Shown here piece by piece: positions 1,798 through 14,717 of a DNA stretch of 64,000 nucleotides. The notes beneath the pieces were generated by a model, which made no database searches, was not told the origin of the DNA, and saw nothing but the letters and a program-made list of their open reading frames with translations. This DNA comes from Escherichia phage BP9, in sequence record PP488543.1; one strand, 5' to 3'. How positions within the stretch are numbered: position 1 is the first letter of the stretch; each line of letters starts with the position of its first letter. The translations under genes and the position numbers were made by a program.

Positions 1798-1846
1798 GTG
1801 TTGCCAATCTTAATTAGATGTGGTAGAATAGAGTAATCGGAGATAC

Positions 1847-1875
1847 TAGCCCTCTAACACGAGGGCTATTTTGTT
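1847..1875 (+). terminator. intrinsic terminator-like hairpin between terminase and portal
   Basis: TAGCCCTC-TAACAC-GAGGGCTA followed by TTTTGTT. Confidence 0.5.
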
Positions 1876-1899
1876 ATACTGTTTTGAGGGGTAAAGCTT

Positions 1900-3456
1900 G
1901 TGTCCAAAAAGAACCGCAGGAAACACAACGCCACAGCCAAAACTGTGAATAAATCTGGGAACGCAGGCGCACCAACTCATAATGTTCGTATGAGTGAGAT
2001 CGGTTCTGGCGCACTTTCCCAAATTATGGCAGAATCGCAATCTATGATGGTTGAGGAATTGCGTTGGCCTCAGCTGATTGCCACAGTGGAGACTATGAAA
2101 TGTGATTCCACAGTTGCTACTGCCTTAGATACAAAATATGTTTTCATCACGAAAGCATTCAATGATTTTAAGATCCTTTATAATGTTAAAAGTGAAGACT
2201 CTAAGAAAGCTGCCGAGCTTATAGAGTATTCTTTGCGTAATTTGGCAAACCAACAAACTCTTCGAGATATTGCAAGAAGCGCAGCTACCTTTAACGAGTA
2301 TGGTTTTTCACTGTTTGAGAAAGTATACCGCAGAGAGAAAGAAGGTAAATATGCCGGGATGCTTCTTATTGATAAAATTGCATTCCGACCTCAGGCCAGT
2401 TTGTCCAGATCAGAGCCGTTTGTCTTTGACAAGAATAGTAGAGCACTGACAGGTATTTATCAGTCACCTAATGCATTTCTAAACACTCAGAATGCACGCT
2501 GGGCTGGACCTCTTGCTGCAATGCCTTCAAAAGGCTTTAATGAGCCTGAAATTTTCATCCCTGCTAAAAAGCTTATGCTCATGACCCTGTCAGGAACAGA
2601 ATCTAACCCTGCAGGTGTGTCACCTATGATAGGTTGCTACAGATCTTTCCGTGAGAAAGTTCTGATTGAAAACCTTGAGGTTGTTGGCTGTTCCAAAGAC
2701 CTTGGTGGTGTGCTTGAGCTGAAAATTCCTTCCAATATTTTGAACAAGGCCAGCATTGACCCGAATTCAATGGAGGGGAGAATGGTTGCAGACCTTATGC
2801 TTGACGCAGCAAACGCCCATAGTGGTGAGCAAAGTTTCTTTATACTTCCGTCTGATAGAGATAAGTCTGGTAAAGAGCTTTACTCCATGACCCTGAAGGG
2901 GGTTGACGGTATGGGTAAGCAGTATTCCACTAAAGATTTGATTGATGCCCGTAAGAAGGCGATTCTTGACCGTTTCGGTGCTGGCTTTATTAACCTCGGT
3001 AACGATAACGTTGGATCCTTCTCTCTGTCTGAGTCAAAACAGTCTATCCATGGTCATTTTGTTCAGCGTGATATAGATATTATCACTGAAGCCTTCAATA
3101 AAGATCTTATTCCACAGCTTCTGGCATTGAATGGTATCATCCTTGAAGATGATGATATGCCTAAACTGAAACCTGGTCTGATTGAAGAAGTGGATATGGA
3201 GAGCTTCTCCAAGTTTGTCCAGAGGATCGGTGCTGTAGGTTACTTGCCAAAAACTCCTGCAGTAATTAATAAGATTCTTGAAGTAGGTGGGTTTGATGAA
3301 AGATTTGACGAGGACATGGATCAGGAAGAGCTGATGAAGCTCTTGGGCCAGGATATCAGTAGGGCTGGTGATGGAATGGCTGCAGGATCCACTGGTAACG
3401 GCACTTCTAAGATGTCATCAACCAGAGATAATTCCATATCCAACATGGAAAATTAA
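1900..3456 (+). CDS. portal protein
   Basis: 518 aa ORF immediately downstream of terminase; GTG start with SD GAGGGG; size and position typical of portal. Confidence 0.65.
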   Translation: MSKKNRRKHNATAKTVNKSGNAGAPTHNVRMSEIGSGALSQIMAESQSMMVEELRWPQLIATVETMKCDSTVATALDTKYVFITKAFNDFKILYNVKSEDSKKAAELIEYSLRNLANQQTLRDIARSAATFNEYGFSLFEKVYRREKEGKYAGMLLIDKIAFRPQASLSRSEPFVFDKNSRALTGIYQSPNAFLNTQNARWAGPLAAMPSKGFNEPEIFIPAKKLMLMTLSGTESNPAGVSPMIGCYRSFREKVLIENLEVVGCSKDLGGVLELKIPSNILNKASIDPNSMEGRMVADLMLDAANAHSGEQSFFILPSDRDKSGKELYSMTLKGVDGMGKQYSTKDLIDARKKAILDRFGAGFINLGNDNVGSFSLSESKQSIHGHFVQRDIDIITEAFNKDLIPQLLALNGIILEDDDMPKLKPGLIEEVDMESFSKFVQRIGAVGYLPKTPAVINKILEVGGFDERFDEDMDQEELMKLLGQDISRAGDGMAAGSTGNGTSKMSSTRDNSISNMEN

Positions 3457-9569: not shown

Positions 9570-10946
9570 ATGCCATATTTAGATAAGGTGGTAGATGTTA
9601 CAGTTAACCTCGGAACCCAGCCTATTGACACTGTAGGTTTCGAAACTCCCCTGTTCATCGCTATCCACAACAACTTTACTGAGCGAGCTCGCGTATATGC
9701 GGAGCTGGATCAGATGGTGGAAGATGGTTTCGCACAAGGCTCTGCAGCGTATGAGTTTGCAGCAAAAGCTTTTGGTGGTGTATTCCCTCCACAATACGTT
9801 ATGATCGGCAGACAGGCCAAAGAAAAGACCACTGTAGATTTTAAAGGTATTGCTGCCGCAGCTGATACCGATGTCGTAATGACTATTGCAAAAGGTAGCT
9901 ACAATACTTCTTTGATAGTGCCTATCTCTGGTGGAACAGGTGCAACTCAGATTGCAGAGTCAATGAAGACTAAAATTGAAGCAGATGATAGCTTGAACGA
10001 TATCACTGTAGAGGCTGCTGAAGGTGTTCTCACCATCACTGGTAACTGCACTGTTGGTTATCATACTGGTAACTACACAATCAAAAATATCGCCAATGCT
10101 GAAAAACCTTCTACAGTAGTTGATAAGATCAATGCTGAGCGTGACAATTGGTACTTCCTGTGCCATGAAGACCACACCGACATTGAAGCATGTGCCAAGT
10201 GGGCTCAGGCTAACTATAAGCTGCATGTCTACTCTACTGCAGAAGATGTGACTGGCAAAGATAATAACATCGCCACCAAACTGATGGCTGCACAGTATGA
10301 CAGTGTCGGCATGTACGATCCTCGTGCTGATAAAGATTTTCCAGAGGGTGGTATCGTAGGCGCTATGGCATCCAACGATCCGTCTTACGGTGACAGCTTG
10401 CACTTAAAACAGATGCCGGGTGTGATTGCACCATCTCTGACTTTAACTCAGCGCATGGCGATTTGGGAAAACCACGTTAACTTCTATAGAATGATTAACG
10501 GTGTTGGTGCTTTCTGGGAAGGTAAGTGTGCTTCAGGTCAGTATGCAGACGCTATTCGTTTTGCACACTGGATCAAGTTCAGATCTGAAGAATCTATGTT
10601 TGGGTACATGCATCGCCGCTCCAACATGGGTTTAAGCATGAAGATGTCTGATGATGATCTTCCGGTTATCAAGTCTGTCTTGATGAACAACCCAATCAAC
10701 ACTGGCATTAAGAATGGTGCGATCCTGACAGGTTTCGACGAAGACAATAATGTATTCTACGACCCGATCATTACAGTTCCTAAACGTGCAGAAATCCCAA
10801 CTAATCAGTTGGCTGCTCGTGTTCTGGAAGGTGTGAAAGTAGAACTGGTGTATAACAACGCCCTGCACTTCGTTCGTATCCGGATCAACGTCCTTCTGGA
10901 CAAAGTTGGTTCTAAATCCACCAATGCTGTTGCAATGACTGAATAA
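9570..10946 (+). CDS. putative tail sheath protein (alternatively major tail protein)
   Basis: 458 aa; gene order large protein, 157-aa protein, chaperone pair, tape measure; baseplate genes downstream support a contractile tail. Confidence 0.5.
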   Translation: MPYLDKVVDVTVNLGTQPIDTVGFETPLFIAIHNNFTERARVYAELDQMVEDGFAQGSAAYEFAAKAFGGVFPPQYVMIGRQAKEKTTVDFKGIAAAADTDVVMTIAKGSYNTSLIVPISGGTGATQIAESMKTKIEADDSLNDITVEAAEGVLTITGNCTVGYHTGNYTIKNIANAEKPSTVVDKINAERDNWYFLCHEDHTDIEACAKWAQANYKLHVYSTAEDVTGKDNNIATKLMAAQYDSVGMYDPRADKDFPEGGIVGAMASNDPSYGDSLHLKQMPGVIAPSLTLTQRMAIWENHVNFYRMINGVGAFWEGKCASGQYADAIRFAHWIKFRSEESMFGYMHRRSNMGLSMKMSDDDLPVIKSVLMNNPINTGIKNGAILTGFDEDNNVFYDPIITVPKRAEIPTNQLAARVLEGVKVELVYNNALHFVRIRINVLLDKVGSKSTNAVAMTE

Positions 10947-10956
10947 GGAAGCCTAG

Positions 10957-11430
10957 ATGGAAACTCAAATTTTAACTCCTTATGCGTATGACCCTAAAAA
11001 GGTCAAACTGTATCTGATGCAGCAGCGTGTCACTGGCTTCGCTGCTGACACCAAGATTGTTGTTTCAAGAAACGAAGACAACATTTATCCTCACGTTGGT
11101 GTGGATGGTGAAATGTCTGCGGCTCTGTCCCGTAACCAATCTGGTGTTATGACTGTATCTTTGCAGAACACTTCTGTATGGAACGCTTACCTTTCTGACT
11201 GGCAGAAACAGGCATCGATCACTGGCCTGGTATTCTTCCCGGTTCTGCTGGAAGGTAGCCAGGGCCCCGGTATTTCCACAATCGGTTGGATCCAGAAACA
11301 GCCTGACCTGACTTACGGAACCGAAGTAGGTCAACTGGACTGGGATATCGGTATTCTGGATGCATGGCTCAACCGTGACAACATCACTGGTGCTCTCACT
11401 GGCCTCGCAGGTCTTGCAGGTATTATCTAA
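10957..11430 (+). CDS. putative tail tube protein
   Basis: 157 aa directly after sheath candidate. Confidence 0.45.
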   Translation: METQILTPYAYDPKKVKLYLMQQRVTGFAADTKIVVSRNEDNIYPHVGVDGEMSAALSRNQSGVMTVSLQNTSVWNAYLSDWQKQASITGLVFFPVLLEGSQGPGISTIGWIQKQPDLTYGTEVGQLDWDIGILDAWLNRDNITGALTGLAGLAGII

Positions 11431-11448
11431 GGGCACACTTTAGCATAG

Positions 11449-11478
11449 GCCTCACCTTCGGGTGGGGCTTTTTGCTTT
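11449..11478 (+). terminator. intrinsic terminator
   Basis: GCCTCACC-TTCG-GGTGGGGC then TTTTTGCTTTT. Confidence 0.75.
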
Positions 11479-11520
11479 TATGGTTTTGACACACGTTCTT
11501 GAATTGCTTGAAAGGTTAAA

Positions 11521-11549
11521 TTGACAATGCACCATAATCATGGTAAAAT
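11521..11549 (+). promoter_or_regulatory. sigma70-type promoter (TTGACA, 17 bp, TAAAAT) with flanking inverted repeat
   Basis: -35 TTGACA 11521-11526; -10 TAAAAT 11544-11549; 9-bp inverted repeat TGCACCATA (11528-11536) / TATGGTGCA (11557-11565) brackets the -10. Confidence 0.65.
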
Positions 11550-11592
11550 ACACAAATATGGTGCACAACATGACTAATAAGGATGCTATAAA

Positions 11593-12066
11593 ATGGCTAT
11601 AAACTTTAGACCTACAACAGAGATTGATTTAGCAGGGCACAACTTTGTGATCACCCACTGGGGACCGATGAAAGCAATGAAAAATATGCCTAAAATCGGT
11701 AAGATTGTGGCTGTCCCGCTAGGTGCTATCGGTGGATCTATTATCTCAGGTGGTCAGAATATGGCAGAGGTCCTTCCTACTGCTCTGGCTTACCTGTTCC
11801 AAGAACTTGATGATAACTCTATTGAAGAGTTATTTAAAATTTTGTTCGAAGATATTACCGTAGATGGTGTGGATAAGCTTAACCCGGATGTTGTGTTTGC
11901 AGGGCATCTGCTGGAGATGATTAAGCTGGCAGGTAAGGTTCTGGAGGTTAACTACGGCTGTTTTTTCACACAAGACGGTTTAGGAAGCCTTCTGGAGATG
12001 TTACAGCAGATGGGTATGATTCAGCAGGTGAACAACCTGGATCAGACTCCGGAAGAGCAGGAATAA
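11593..12066 (+). CDS. tail assembly chaperone (G-like)
   Basis: 157 aa between tube and tape measure; contains slippery heptamer; acidic C-terminus. Confidence 0.6.
   Translation: MAINFRPTTEIDLAGHNFVITHWGPMKAMKNMPKIGKIVAVPLGAIGGSIISGGQNMAEVLPTALAYLFQELDDNSIEELFKILFEDITVDGVDKLNPDVVFAGHLLEMIKLAGKVLEVNYGCFFTQDGLGSLLEMLQQMGMIQQVNNLDQTPEEQE
11961..11967 (+). promoter_or_regulatory. -1 programmed ribosomal frameshift slippery site T_TTT_TTC
   Basis: Heptamer in zero frame of chaperone gene; -1 frame is open from 11952 to 12326. Confidence 0.5.
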
Positions 12067-12077
12067 GCAAGGTTGTT

Positions 12078-12326
12078 GTGAGGGCCAGTGAGTGGGCAGC
12101 CAAGAACAGTTCACTAAACTGGTTCGACTTTCTTTGGTGCAGGGTGCTCAAGAATTTCAAAGGGGAAAATTTTGAATCGCTAAATCTTGCAGATATGGCG
12201 TATTTCCTGAAGCTCTGTGAGTATCTTGATATCGAAGAATTCCTAGATACCGTCCAAAACAGGGAAATGGAGCGGGAGCAGAAGGCTGCCGCAGCTGCTG
12301 CGAAAGCTAAGCGCAGGAGAGGATAA
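12078..12326 (+). CDS. frameshift extension ORF of tail assembly chaperone (GT-like product)
   Basis: ORF in -1 frame relative to chaperone, open from 11952; basic Ala/Lys-rich C-terminus. Confidence 0.5.
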   Translation: MRASEWAAKNSSLNWFDFLWCRVLKNFKGENFESLNLADMAYFLKLCEYLDIEEFLDTVQNREMEREQKAAAAAAKAKRRRG

Positions 12327-12330
12327 TCTA

Positions 12331-12368
12331 AGGGCCGGATTCCTTTTCTGGGATCTGGCCCTTTTTAT
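12331..12368 (+). terminator. intrinsic terminator
   Basis: AGGGCCGGATTCC-TTTTCT-GGGATCTGGCCCT imperfect hairpin then TTTTTATT. Confidence 0.55.
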
Positions 12369-12380
12369 TATGAGGAAACC

Positions 12381-14717
12381 ATGGCTACAAACAAAATAGT
12401 TGCCACAACAGTCAACAAGATTGGCTTTGAGATAGAGAACTCCTCCTACAAAAAAGCTGTAGAGAAAATTCGCAGTATTGGGAGGGAGTTCAGGAAACTG
12501 GGCGAAGATTTTAACTCAGCCAACCCCATGAGTAGATGGCAGGCGGTAGCTGTTAAAACCCAGCAGACAATGCAGCGGGTTGCCAGACAGCAATCTCAGG
12601 CAAATGCTAAGCTGCACAGGGAGAGCGTAGCACAGGCCAAGAAAGAGGCTGCAGTAAGGGCTGCAATAGAACGTAGGGAGAATGCGAGACGTAAACAAGC
12701 TGTAGGTAATCTTACCGCTAAAAATCCAGAAATGGCTAGGATGCGTAAGTTCTACCAGCAGCAAGCTAAAGAGGCCAAAAAGGCTGCCAAATCTGCACCA
12801 GTGTCTTACGGTGGTTATAAGGCACCTAAGGCAAGAGTTCTTGCTAACGCCAAGTCTTTCAGATATATTCCAGGCAACCCGAACATGGGTGGGGTGGCTT
12901 CAGATCCTAATCTTGTTAAAGCCCAGACCGCTGCCATGAACCGTTATCACAGACAGCTAAGAAGGGACGGTAAAGCTGGTATGGATAATAGGCTTATGTC
13001 GGATCGTGAGGCAAGAAGAACCCACCTCTACAACTCCGCGATAAGACTTTCTGCCAAGTATGGTGCCGGATTCCGTGGAAGCTTGCCAGGATACTCAGAG
13101 TTAGAGTCCAGGTTTGCTCGCGGGGAGATGAAAAAGTCAACATTTAACGCCCACTTGTCAGCGCTGCAGTCTGGATTTAAAAGCGCCACCAGCCAAACGC
13201 TTACACTAGGCGATGCCATGAGAGACTTACGTAGATCTGTTATTAATGCAACAGCTGCGTATACAGCTTTTTCTGGATTTGCTGCGGTTAACAGATCCGG
13301 TCACATGATGGAGGGGGCAAGTGCTGCTCTTACTGCTGTTACTGGAGATCCAAACAAAGCCAACAGTGAGGTTGCGTTTGTCCAGCAAGAGGCTATGCGT
13401 CTTGGTTTTGATCTCAAATCTGGTCTTCAAGGTTACGCCCAGATGTCGGTAAACGCCAAAAACCAGATGACAAATCAGGAAGTGCATGAGCTGTTTTCTG
13501 CATACTCCCAGTATGCTGCTGCTTATGGTGCTGATGAGGTAAAATATCAGCGCGGTATCATGGCAATCCAGCAGATGCTTGGCAAGGGACAAGTAATGTC
13601 CGAGGAACTGAAGCAACAGCTTGCTGAAGCATTACCTGGTGCATACGAACCTTTTATCAAGGCCACCAAAGAGGCTTTTGGTCTTTCTGAACTCTCCATG
13701 GATCAGTTCATGGACATGATGAAGAAAGGTGAGGTTAAAACAGCCAAGATCATGAAGTATGTGGCTAAGTACATGAACGAGGCATCTGCAGCTGGTTATG
13801 AAAGAATGCAGAAGTCTAACGTGCTGGCAGAAAACAGACTGAAAACCTTCATTGAACTGACTCGTCAGAAACTGTTCACCCGTTGGTCTGACGAACTAAC
13901 AGAGTTCTATTATACACTAATCCGCACTGGTGAGACTCTGCAATTTGTGTGGGATGCCTCTGGTGATTTTGTTAGCGGGTTTGTGAGAGGCCTTAACTGG
14001 GTAGTTGGTGAACTAAACAACACTATAGTCAAGATCCGCATGTTTTTCCTTGAATGGGGGATTAAATGGGGATTCATAACAGCTAAGACGAAGGAATATT
14101 CTGAAGAGCTTCATGACACCTTTAGCTATGCTAGATGGGCAGGGTTTGCTGCTGCCATCATGCTGGTAGTCAACGCCCTAACAAAAGGTTTTGTCATGGC
14201 ATCCATGCTTGTAAAAACCTTTAAATTCCTTAACTCTTTAAGAGGTGCAGCTGGAGCAGCTGGTGTCGCTACTGCAGAAGGATCTGGTGGTGGAGCTCCG
14301 GCAGGAAAAGGTGGAGGTGGCCTCAAGACACCTGGTGGCAAAGTTGGTCTGCTTGGTAAGCTGGGTATTATCGGTACAATATTAAGCGCAGGGGAATTAT
14401 TTAATGACCGTTTCAACCCACTAAGTGAAAGAAATCAGCAGCTGGACACTATCAGCGATATGATTCGCAAAGATATCATATCAGGAGGTAACGGGTTTGT
14501 TAATCCTTTGGACACCTTACCGGGCGGGACTCTTCCGTTGCCAGGTGGCCCCGGTTTTGCTTCTCAATTAAGAACTATGGAAATGCTACCTTTAGAGATC
14601 AGTGATGGGAAAATCACGATTTCAATAGATGAGGGTGAGTTTAACAAAATATTTGATGCAAAACTTGAGTGGGAGAACAATAAAGATATCAACTTCATGT
14701 CTACCGACCTTTGGTAA
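12381..14717 (+). CDS. tail tape measure protein
   Basis: 778 aa; helical repeats, Gly-rich hydrophobic segment (GGGAPAGKGGGGLK...GIIGTILSAG); follows chaperone pair. Confidence 0.8.
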   Translation: MATNKIVATTVNKIGFEIENSSYKKAVEKIRSIGREFRKLGEDFNSANPMSRWQAVAVKTQQTMQRVARQQSQANAKLHRESVAQAKKEAAVRAAIERRENARRKQAVGNLTAKNPEMARMRKFYQQQAKEAKKAAKSAPVSYGGYKAPKARVLANAKSFRYIPGNPNMGGVASDPNLVKAQTAAMNRYHRQLRRDGKAGMDNRLMSDREARRTHLYNSAIRLSAKYGAGFRGSLPGYSELESRFARGEMKKSTFNAHLSALQSGFKSATSQTLTLGDAMRDLRRSVINATAAYTAFSGFAAVNRSGHMMEGASAALTAVTGDPNKANSEVAFVQQEAMRLGFDLKSGLQGYAQMSVNAKNQMTNQEVHELFSAYSQYAAAYGADEVKYQRGIMAIQQMLGKGQVMSEELKQQLAEALPGAYEPFIKATKEAFGLSELSMDQFMDMMKKGEVKTAKIMKYVAKYMNEASAAGYERMQKSNVLAENRLKTFIELTRQKLFTRWSDELTEFYYTLIRTGETLQFVWDASGDFVSGFVRGLNWVVGELNNTIVKIRMFFLEWGIKWGFITAKTKEYSEELHDTFSYARWAGFAAAIMLVVNALTKGFVMASMLVKTFKFLNSLRGAAGAAGVATAEGSGGGAPAGKGGGGLKTPGGKVGLLGKLGIIGTILSAGELFNDRFNPLSERNQQLDTISDMIRKDIISGGNGFVNPLDTLPGGTLPLPGGPGFASQLRTMEMLPLEISDGKITISIDEGEFNKIFDAKLEWENNKDINFMSTDLW

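What the first reader, a model, noticed from the sequence alone, without database searches (positions are those of the whole stretch)
11952..12326. Canonical -1 frameshift site in the tail assembly chaperone
The heptamer T_TTT_TTC (11961-11967) is in the zero frame of the chaperone gene, and the -1 frame is open from 11952 to 12326. This fits the conserved G/GT-type translational frameshift of tailed phages. The site lies about 100 nt before the zero-frame stop, further upstream than usual.
Basis: partly seen in the sequence, partly recalled or inferred. Interest (0 to 1): 0.45.

Follow-up and report, generated by a model that had tools for sequence, protein, structure and literature searches.

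The report
Tail chaperone frameshift site in rV5-like phage
This is the usual "slip back one base" signal that tailed phages use to make a short and a long form of their tail-assembly chaperone; it is real and strongly conserved, but ordinary, and public records of this phage group do not annotate it.

Summary
T_TTT_TTC (11961-11967) is in the zero-frame register of the chaperone gene (11593-12066), and the -1 frame is open from 11952 to 12326.

The window is an rV5-like coliphage (Vequintavirus). The gene lies between the tail tube and tape measure genes and matches Pfam Phage_TAC_15.

In one genome a heptamer like this could be chance (about 9%). Comparison settles it:
- About 25 diverged lineages, some only about 28% identical in protein, keep exactly T_TTT_TTC in register.
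- Four different preceding amino acids (Cys, Pro and two kinds of Ser codon) all use a T-ending codon, while neighbouring codons vary synonymously.
- The -1 frame is always open through a conserved C-terminal domain, and the +1 frame never is.
- Many lineages have no ATG, GTG or TTG ahead of that domain.
- One relative (Rheinheimera Barba5A) has G_GGA_AAG at nearly the same place instead.
- The homologous site in the Felix O1-like phage Moogle is already annotated as a frameshift.

I found no canonical downstream stem-loop in the window. A GGAGG lies 13 nt upstream and could act as a stimulator.

Verdict: a genuine G/GT-type -1 programmed frameshift, a new member of a known kind, and of low interest apart from correcting annotation. 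The expected products are 17.3 kDa (157 aa) and 27.1 kDa (244 aa).

The parts
10957..11430 (+). Tail tube gene (upstream neighbour; context)
   Evidence: Pfam KPP10_Orf10 and phrog_280. Annotated as tail tube or virion structural protein in relatives.
11447..11470 (+). Terminator-like hairpin after the tube gene
   Evidence: Annotated as a terminator in Murica.
11521..11549 (+). Sigma-70-like promoter of the chaperone transcription unit
   Evidence: TTGACA, 17-nt spacer, TAAAAT, 11 of 12 matches with a TG extension. rV5 RefSeq annotates promoter P51 in the same tube-chaperone gap.
11593..12066 (+). Short chaperone (TAC-N, gpG-like), 157 aa, 17.3 kDa, made by zero-frame translation
   Evidence: Pfam Phage_TAC_15, E=2.3e-23, 83.6 bits against a cutoff of 22. 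phrog_3840, E=5e-69.
11943..11947 (+). SD-like GGAGG, 13 nt upstream of the heptamer (candidate stimulator; inferred)
   Evidence: An SD-like element (GGAGG, GGAG or GAGG; in one lineage only AGGT) lies at the same offset in 19 of 24 lineages. Moogle also has GGAGG at that offset. The signal is confounded with the conserved Leu-Glu-Val codons.
11961..11967 (+). Slippery heptamer T_TTT_TTC (two tRNA-Phe slip back from UUU-UUC to UUU-UUU)
   Evidence: Register confirmed. Conserved in all relatives examined except Barba5A.
11968..12063 (+). Dual-coding overlap: the zero frame encodes the conserved 32-aa tail of TAC-N, and the -1 frame encodes a variable Gly/Ser/Pro-rich linker
11967..12326 (+). 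The -1 frame part of the long chaperone. TAC-NC = join(11593..11967, 11967..12326), 244 aa, 27.1 kDa. The conserved T-like domain runs from about 12069 to 12290.
   Evidence: Fusion translated. phrog_10409, E=1.9e-51, for residues 163-244. The frame is open in all relatives.
12330..12363 (+). Terminator-like hairpin (14 bp) directly after the -1 frame stop
   Evidence: Annotated as a terminator in rV5 and Murica.
12381..14717 (+). Tape measure protein gene (downstream neighbour; context)
   Evidence: Pfam TMP_3. phrog_5255, E=0.

Best explanation
This is a programmed -1 ribosomal frameshift of the lambda G/GT type in the tail assembly chaperone gene of an rV5-like myovirus.

Most ribosomes read 11593-12066 and release the 157-aa short chaperone. 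A minority pause with tRNA-Phe on UUU (P site) and UUC (A site) at 11962-11967. Both tRNAs slip back one base to UUU-UUU. Translation then continues in the -1 frame to 12326 and gives a 244-aa long form. That form carries the chaperone domain (residues 1-125), a roughly 35-aa flexible linker and a conserved C-terminal domain of about 85 aa.

By analogy with lambda gpG/gpGT, the shared N-terminal part should coat the tape measure protein, and the extra domain should recruit the tube protein. Neither form should end up in the virion.

Shown here: the site, its register, its deep conservation, the obligatory continuity of the -1 ORF and the gene context. Inferred: that the slip is ribosomal, its efficiency, the roles of the two forms, and a stimulatory role for the upstream GGAGG.
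For: Identity and context
- The window is 100% identical to Escherichia phage VB-EcoM-WM and about 99% identical to rV5.
- Gene order is sheath, tube, chaperone, small ORF, tape measure.
- Heptamer register and the open -1 frame are confirmed.

Conservation of the site
- The same heptamer is in register in PVP-SE1, Klebsiella K54_rec2, Erwinia SNUABM_55, W70, PBES02, phAPEC8, Eryne and Aeromonas phiA009.
- It is also present in all 36 IMG/VR loci and in three metagenome lineages.
- Among 22 representatives with under 90% nucleotide identity (pairwise 38-89%), the codons are TGT 13/13, TTT 21/21 and TTC 21/21. Neighbouring conserved residues vary synonymously, for example Tyr TAC 16 / TAT 6 and Leu with five codons.
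- The residue before Phe-Phe is Cys (TGT), Pro (CCT), Ser (AGT) or Ser (TCT), always T-ending.
- Rheinheimera Barba5A lost Phe-Phe but has G_GGA_AAG in register a few codons downstream.

Continuity of the -1 ORF
- The -1 extension is 206-296 nt in every lineage. The +1 extension is only 10-61 nt.
- Many lineages have no ATG, GTG or TTG before the conserved block of the -1 domain. These include L052, an 89%-identical relative of the window that lacks the GTG at 12078.

External support
- Moogle has a joined, frameshifted chaperone CDS. Its T_TTT_TTC aligns to the same LE(V/A)N(Y/F)G(C/S)FF motif (PMC4319497).
- The same kind of site was proposed for Vandenendeviridae and Andersonviridae (PMC12846349).
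- U_UU.C is the second most frameshift-prone tetramer in E. coli. UUUUUUC gives 0.12%, 0.89% and 7.6% frameshifting with no, moderate and strong stimulators (PMC4066793).
- The W70 virion proteome contains tube, sheath and tape measure but not W70_121/122.
Against: - There is no direct protein evidence for the fusion. The rV5 proteomics paper does not mention it.
- There is no canonical downstream stimulator in the window. The first predicted pairing starts at least 10 nt after the heptamer, and the fold z-score is only -1.86.
- The window's predicted long-range stem is not kept in its nearest diverged relatives. There is no Rfam match.
- The motif alone gives only about 0.1% frameshifting in E. 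coli reporters. An unidentified stimulator, or a very low ratio, has to be assumed.
- The IMG/VR loci were retrieved with a peptide pattern that required Phe-Phe. The presence of FF there is partly selected. The codon choice is not.
Confidence: 0.88

Rival explanations
1. These are two separate genes. The downstream ORF is translated independently from GTG 12078 as an 82-aa protein, as annotated in Murica and many other records, and the heptamer is incidental.
For: GTG at 12078 has a weak AAGG five nucleotides upstream. Murica annotates an RBS and a CDS there. phrog_10409 models an 82-aa protein.
Against: The GTG is lineage-specific. The 89%-identical relative L052 and many others (Klebsiella K54, L016, PBES02, L028, L036, L040, L041) have no ATG, GTG or TTG until well inside or after the conserved domain. 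Gene callers there produce truncated ORFs of 43-60 aa. The -1 frame is open back to the heptamer in every lineage, which independent initiation would not require. It also does not explain the invariant T_TTT_TTC codons.
Confidence: 0.04
2. The same fusion protein arises from transcriptional slippage. RNA polymerase adds one extra U in the T6 run, and ribosomes do not slip.
For: A homopolymeric T6 run is present. A 2022 paper on T4-like phages, known to me only from its title as cited, argues for a non-frameshift route for their chaperones.
Against: Six T is short for efficient polymerase slippage (my own knowledge: natural cases usually have runs of 7-9 or more). The run always stays in the exact tandem-slip register and always ends in C, the codon choice that favours A-site re-pairing. 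Barba5A replaces it with G_GGA_AAG, a classic ribosomal slip site with no long homopolymer.
Confidence: 0.06
3. It is a chance heptamer and a non-functional open frame, with no long form made.
For: Within a single genome, some in-register heptamer in the overlap is expected about 9% of the time.
Against: The heptamer, the open -1 frame and the -1 protein sequence are all conserved across subfamilies.
Confidence: 0.02

Closest known systems
Citrobacter phage Moogle (Felix O1-like, Ounavirinae) tape measure chaperone with annotated translational frameshift (KM236239; PMC4319497)
   Same: - Homologous chaperone: BLASTP E=8e-7, 24% identity, aligned through the slip motif.
- Identical T_TTT_TTC in the same register at LEANFGSFF, against LEVNYGCFF in the window.
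- GGAGG at the same -18 offset.
- The -1 ORF ends just before or at the tape measure gene.
   Different: - Only 42 nt from the heptamer to the zero-frame stop, against 96 nt here.
- The -1 encoded domain shows no significant BLASTP similarity beyond the junction.
- It belongs to a different subfamily, and the frameshift is annotated there but not in rV5-like records.
Conserved -1 frameshift at a GTTTTT motif in chaperone genes of Vandenendeviridae (Pseudomonas phage Adele) and Andersonviridae (PMC12846349)
   Same: - The same argument and the same anatomy. The downstream 'hypothetical protein' is really the C-terminal part of the long chaperone.
- The -1 frame is uninterrupted in all genomes, with a poly-T motif near the end of the short form.
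- The authors note that these families are related to Vequintavirinae.
   Different: As far as I read it, that paper does not analyse the frameshift in Vequintavirinae or Stephanstirmvirinae. I did not align those chaperones to the window myself.
Phage lambda gpG/gpGT (G_GGA_AAG, about 1:30 ratio)
   Same: - Gene position between the tube and tape measure genes.
- A -1 slip on an X_XXY_YYZ heptamer gives a short and a long chaperone.
- Neither is in the virion (Atkins et al. 2016). The W70 proteome is consistent with this.
   Different: - A different heptamer, and no detectable sequence similarity was tested or claimed.
- The virus is a myovirus.
- The slip lies 32 codons before the stop, so the long form lacks a conserved 32-aa tail of the short form.
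E. coli dnaX and IS911-type signals with an upstream Shine-Dalgarno-like stimulator
   Same: GGAGG lies 13 nt upstream of the heptamer. That is within the 10-14 nt spacing I recall for stimulation of -1 shifts (Larsen et al. 1994, from memory; the concept is described).
   Different: No accompanying downstream hairpin was found. The role of GGAGG is untested, and the element overlaps conserved Leu-Glu-Val codons.

Membership tests
G/GT-type programmed -1 frameshift of phage tail assembly chaperones | Gene pair located between the major tail (tube) gene and the tape measure gene | tested here: met
   Tube 10957-11430, chaperone 11593-12066, -1 ORF to 12326, tape measure 12381-14717.
G/GT-type programmed -1 frameshift of phage tail assembly chaperones | The upstream ORF is a tail assembly chaperone | tested here: met
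   Pfam Phage_TAC_15, 83.6 bits against a cutoff of 22. phrog_3840, E=5e-69.
G/GT-type programmed -1 frameshift of phage tail assembly chaperones | An X_XXY_YYZ heptamer in zero-frame register inside the overlap with an open -1 frame | tested here: met
   T_TTT_TTC at 11961-11967. The -1 frame is open from 11952 to 12326.
G/GT-type programmed -1 frameshift of phage tail assembly chaperones | Slip site and frame arrangement conserved among diverged relatives, beyond what the protein sequence requires | tested here: met
   Codon-level invariance in 21 of 22 representatives, four different T-ending preceding codons, and G_GGA_AAG substituted in Barba5A.
G/GT-type programmed -1 frameshift of phage tail assembly chaperones | The downstream ORF has no translation start of its own | tested here: met
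   No ATG, GTG or TTG before the conserved block in many lineages. The window's GTG at 12078 is not conserved.
G/GT-type programmed -1 frameshift of phage tail assembly chaperones | A fusion protein is made at a low fixed ratio and is required for tail assembly | not testable with these tools
   This needs mass spectrometry, a western blot, a reporter or genetics. No fused protein exists in the 5.8-billion-sequence protein database, as expected for a recoded gene.
G/GT-type programmed -1 frameshift of phage tail assembly chaperones | The chaperones are absent from mature virions | tested here: inconclusive
   Literature only. The W70 virion proteome lists W70_120, 123 and 124 but not W70_121/122. 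The rV5 paper does not mention gp50 or gp51.
Frameshift signals with a downstream stem-loop or pseudoknot stimulator | A stable structure starting about 5-9 nt after the heptamer, conserved or covarying | tested here: not met
   In the window, the first pairing starts at +10 or later and the z-score is -1.86. The consensus fold finds only a 5-6 bp long-range helix in sister clades, and its 3' arm is deleted in the rV5 clade. Pseudoknots were not searched.
Frameshift signals with an upstream SD-like stimulator (dnaX/IS911 type) | An anti-SD complementary element about 10-14 nt upstream of the heptamer | tested here: inconclusive
   GGAGG at 11943-11947, with a 13-nt gap. Present in 19 of 24 lineages, and also in Moogle. 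It cannot be separated from the Leu-Glu-Val coding constraint: GAG 15 against GAA 4, with a 49% baseline.

The most novel reading that the evidence does not exclude
This chaperone family might use an unusual bipartite or long-range stimulator rather than a local hairpin. It would combine an upstream GGAGG with a helix that joins the region 7 nt after the heptamer to the sequence just past the zero-frame stop, about 100 nt away.

In sister clades that helix covaries: GACGG/CCGTC, GGCGG/CCGCC and AGCGG/CCGCT. The rV5 clade, including this window, would have lost or replaced the helix through a 6-nt deletion. That would make it a natural experiment on how the frameshift ratio is set.

A related reading is that the early slip site creates two alternative C-termini, a conserved 32-aa tail or the T domain, each with a separate function, rather than a simple extension.
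Probability: 0.15. Interest if true: 0.45.

Novelty: new member of a known kind. Interest (0 to 1): 0.25.

Why it matters
Mainly for annotation. In all 60 rV5-, PVP-SE1- and CR3-type records sampled from 228 hits, the -1 part is called 'hypothetical protein' or is not called at all. rV5 RefSeq carries an overlapping ORF50 with a non-standard start. Annotating join(11593..11967, 11967..12326) as the long chaperone would remove a spurious gene and name a conserved protein family (phrog_10409) in more than 200 therapeutic-candidate phage genomes.

It also extends the T_TTT_TTC chaperone site across Vequintavirinae, Stephanstirmvirinae, Plateaulakevirus and Ounavirinae. This shows the site is ancient. 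It does not change what is understood about frameshifting.

Tried and rejected
- **Single-sequence AlphaFold2 of the 244-aa fusion.** Mean pLDDT was 37.7, which is unusable, so I ran no fold search.
- **Search of the 5.8-billion-sequence protein database with the fusion.** It returned only chaperones of 149-159 aa that cover 50-62% of the query. There was no naturally fused homologue.
- **Rfam scan of 11400-12500.** Nothing relevant.
- **NCBIfam.** No family for either part.
- **Minus-strand ORFs 11966-12160 and 11830-11973.** No PHROG match, so I treated them as spurious.
- **Local folding downstream of the heptamer, in the window and in relatives.** No shared hairpin at the canonical spacing.
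- **The window's own long-range stem.** CACAAGAC / GUUGUUGUG, GUUUA / UAAGC and GCCUUCUGG / CCGGAAG.GC give a duplex of -20 kcal/mol, and 5% of control windows score as well. It is not kept in the 89% and 74% relatives, so I rejected it as a supported element.
- **BLASTP of the -1 part against Moogle's -1 part.** Only the junction aligns, E=0.037.
- **Literature.** The rV5 genome and proteome paper and the Septuagintavirus (W70) paper do not contain the word 'frameshift', and the phi92 cryo-EM paper showed no occurrence of it in the search listing. The Klebsiella ValerieMcCarty paper, with its 'frameshift peptides', concerns T4-like phages and is irrelevant.

Full report
**What is there**

The window around the finding is 100% identical to Escherichia phage VB-EcoM-WM and about 99% identical to rV5 and its many relatives in genus Vequintavirus.

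The local gene order on the + strand is:
- tail sheath, 9570-10946 (phrog_205, Pfam DUF3383)
- tail tube, 10957-11430 (KPP10_Orf10, phrog_280)
- a 157-aa ORF, 11593-12066, that matches Pfam Phage_TAC_15 (E=2.3e-23, 83.6 bits against a cutoff of 22) and phrog_3840
- an 82-aa ORF, 12078-12326 (phrog_10409, function unknown)
- the tape measure gene, 12381-14717

The chaperone unit has its own sigma-70-like promoter at 11521-11549. It is bracketed by terminator-like hairpins at 11447-11470 and 12330-12363.

**Check of the observation**

The chaperone codons run TGT(11959-61) TTT(11962-64) TTC(11965-67). T_TTT_TTC at 11961-11967 is therefore in the X_XXY_YYZ register.

The -1 frame has a stop at 11949-11951 and then none until 12324-12326. 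This is the only in-register slippery heptamer in the overlap. The +1 frame closes 25 nt after the zero-frame stop.

A slip gives join(11593..11967, 11967..12326), a 244-aa protein of 27.1 kDa. The zero-frame product is 17.3 kDa.

Within this genome alone the evidence is weak. In-register heptamers occur at 0.27% of codon positions in the window's 42 large ORFs, so one in a 35-codon overlap is expected about 9% of the time. T_TTT_TTC itself occurs only once, at this site, and only 1 of 28 Phe-Phe pairs uses it.

**Comparative evidence**

I collected the locus from:
- annotated phage records: rV5, PVP-SE1, Klebsiella K54_rec2, Erwinia pEa_SNUABM_55, W70, PBES02, phAPEC8, Eryne, Aeromonas phiA009 and Rheinheimera Barba5A
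- 36 IMG/VR contigs
- three metagenome lineages that are 71-89% identical to the window's chaperone

Every lineage except Barba5A carries T_TTT_TTC in register at the aligned LE(V/I)NYG(C/P/S)FF motif.

Among 22 representatives sharing 38-89% nucleotide identity, the three codons are invariant: TGT 13/13, TTT 21/21 and TTC 21/21. Adjacent conserved residues vary synonymously (Tyr TAC 16 / TAT 6; Gly GGC/GGA/GGT; Leu with five codons).

The residue before Phe-Phe is Cys, Pro or Ser in different clades. It is always encoded by a T-ending codon: TGT, CCT, AGT or TCT.

Barba5A has lost Phe-Phe. Instead it carries G_GGA_AAG, the lambda-type heptamer, in register a few codons downstream, with the -1 frame open across it.

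The IMG/VR search pattern required Phe-Phe. The dipeptide is therefore partly selected in that set, but the codon choice and the preceding T are not.

**The -1 frame is a continuation, not a gene**

In every lineage the -1 frame is open from just before the heptamer to the end of a conserved domain, 206-296 nt past the zero-frame stop. The +1 frame extends only 10-61 nt.

The -1 peptide has two parts:
- a variable Gly/Ser/Pro/Thr-rich linker, encoded where the zero frame encodes a conserved 32-aa tail
- a conserved block, ...SKVV.RA.EYA.KNSSL.WFDYLW...LKLNEYLD...

Many lineages have no ATG, GTG or TTG before or within the first half of that block. In Klebsiella K54 the first possible start is at position 85 of the -1 part. 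In L016 it is at 81, in PBES02 and L028 at 65, and in L040 at 68. In L052, an 89%-identical relative of the window, it is at 60.

Gene callers in those genomes therefore report truncated ORFs of 43-60 aa or nothing. The GTG at 12078, used as a start in Murica, is specific to the rV5 lineage. rV5 RefSeq instead annotates an overlapping ORF50 that begins at the equivalent of window 11958, which is not a standard start codon.

**Relation to known cases**

Citrobacter phage Moogle (Felix O1-like) has a joined 'tape measure chaperone' CDS, and its genome note says 'with translational frameshift'.
- Its short form aligns to the window's chaperone (E=8e-7).
- T_TTT_TTC sits at the aligned LEANFGSFF.
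- GGAGG lies at the same -18 offset.
- The -1 ORF ends where the annotated join ends.

A 2025 paper proposes the same conserved -1 frameshift at a GTTTTT motif for Vandenendeviridae and Andersonviridae and notes their relatedness to Vequintavirinae.

I found no paper that describes it for rV5, phi92, PVP-SE1 or W70. In 60 records sampled from 228 hits to the -1 domain, the region is 'hypothetical protein' or unannotated. No protein in the 5.8-billion-sequence database spans both halves.

**Mechanism and efficiency**

In E. coli, U_UU.C is the second most frameshift-prone A-site tetramer, and H_HH.U_UU.Y heptamers are among the efficient classes. This fits the invariant choice of TTC.

Measured values for in-phase UUUUUUC are 0.12% without a stimulator, 0.89% with the IS911 stimulators and 7.6% with the IS3 pseudoknot. 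A lambda-like ratio of a few percent would therefore need help.

I found no canonical helper downstream in the window:
- Predicted pairing begins at least 10 nt after the heptamer, and the fold z-score is -1.86.
- The window's predicted long-range stem ranks only in the top 5% of control windows.
- That stem is not kept in the 89% and 74% relatives.
- There is no Rfam match.

Upstream, GGAGG (11943-11947) lies 13 nt before the heptamer. An SD-like element at that offset is present in 19 of 24 lineages, and in Moogle as well. It overlaps conserved Leu-Glu-Val codons, so selection on the RNA cannot be separated from selection on the protein. The Glu codon is GAG in 15 of 19, against a 49% baseline. 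I treat it as a candidate only.

**Function**

By analogy with lambda (Atkins et al. 2016), both forms should bind the tape measure protein through the shared domain, and the -1 domain should recruit the tube protein. Neither should be in virions. The W70 virion proteome is consistent with this: it lists tube, sheath and tape measure but not W70_121/122.

The slip coincides with the C-terminal edge of the Pfam chaperone domain (the match ends at residue 129; the slip is at residues 124-125). The long form therefore loses a conserved 32-aa tail. That is a conserved trait of this family: the distance is 55-103 nt in relatives and 42 nt in Moogle.

**Rivals**

- Independent initiation is contradicted by the missing start codons.
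- Transcriptional slippage on T6 cannot be excluded from sequence. It is disfavoured by the strict register, by the TTC ending and by Barba5A's G_GGA_AAG.
- Chance is excluded by the conservation.

**Verdict**

This is a new, unannotated member of a well-known kind. Interest is low. The main value is a corrected annotation for the rV5-like, PVP-SE1-like, CR3-like and phi92-like phages.

Noticed in passing
L004 (PVP-SE1) 1579-1583 with 1677-1681; the same columns in L005, L007, L008, L016, L023, L025, L027, L028, L032, L033: A 5-bp long-range RNA helix. Its 5' arm starts 7 nt after the heptamer, and its 3' arm starts 3 nt after the zero-frame stop. It has three covarying versions: GACGG/CCGTC, GGCGG/CCGCC and AGCGG/CCGCT. 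97% of cells are paired, 0 of 500 shuffles reach that value, and slid controls give 20-44%. The 3' arm falls in a 6-nt deletion in the rV5 clade, so the window lacks it. It is a possible frameshift stimulator in the sister clades.
   Followed up: partly
window 11447-11470, 11521-11549, 12330-12363: The chaperone gene pair is a separate transcription unit inside the tail module. It has a near-consensus sigma-70-like promoter (11 of 12 matches, with TG) and terminator-like hairpins on both sides, including one between the chaperone and the tape measure gene.
   Followed up: partly
GenBank MG065635-MG065682 (hits H4-H9, H12, H13, H31, H37, H44 and others): Eighteen to 23 records named 'Campylobacter phage', with host given as Campylobacter jejuni, are about 99% identical to rV5-like coliphage DNA at this locus. 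This suggests mislabelled or contaminated records.
   Followed up: no
L003 (rV5 RefSeq NC_011041) 1566-1934, equivalent to window 11958-12326: rV5 ORF50 is annotated as a 122-aa CDS that overlaps ORF51 by 109 nt. It starts at a CTG just upstream of the heptamer. The annotators seem to have seen the long open frame without calling a frameshift.
   Followed up: yes
window 11977-11982; the homologous GGT TTC in relatives: Codons Gly-Phe, 10-13 nt after the heptamer, are invariant as GGT TTC in about 20 lineages. This gives a second T_TTC tetramer and Arg-Phe-Arg in the -1 frame. In the rV5 clade they are GGT TTA. The likely cause is dual-coding constraint. A secondary slip site is not excluded.
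   Followed up: partly
L049 1-1397 and L050 1-1444: In human-gut metagenome relatives (74% identical chaperone), a large DUF723-containing gene sits directly upstream of the chaperone, where the window has the tube gene and an intergenic promoter. It may be a mobile endonuclease-type insertion.
   Followed up: no
L012 (Rheinheimera Barba5A) 1820-2458, minus strand: A putative DNA-binding protein gene on the opposite strand lies between the chaperone -1 ORF and the tape measure gene. This breaks the usual adjacency.
   Followed up: no
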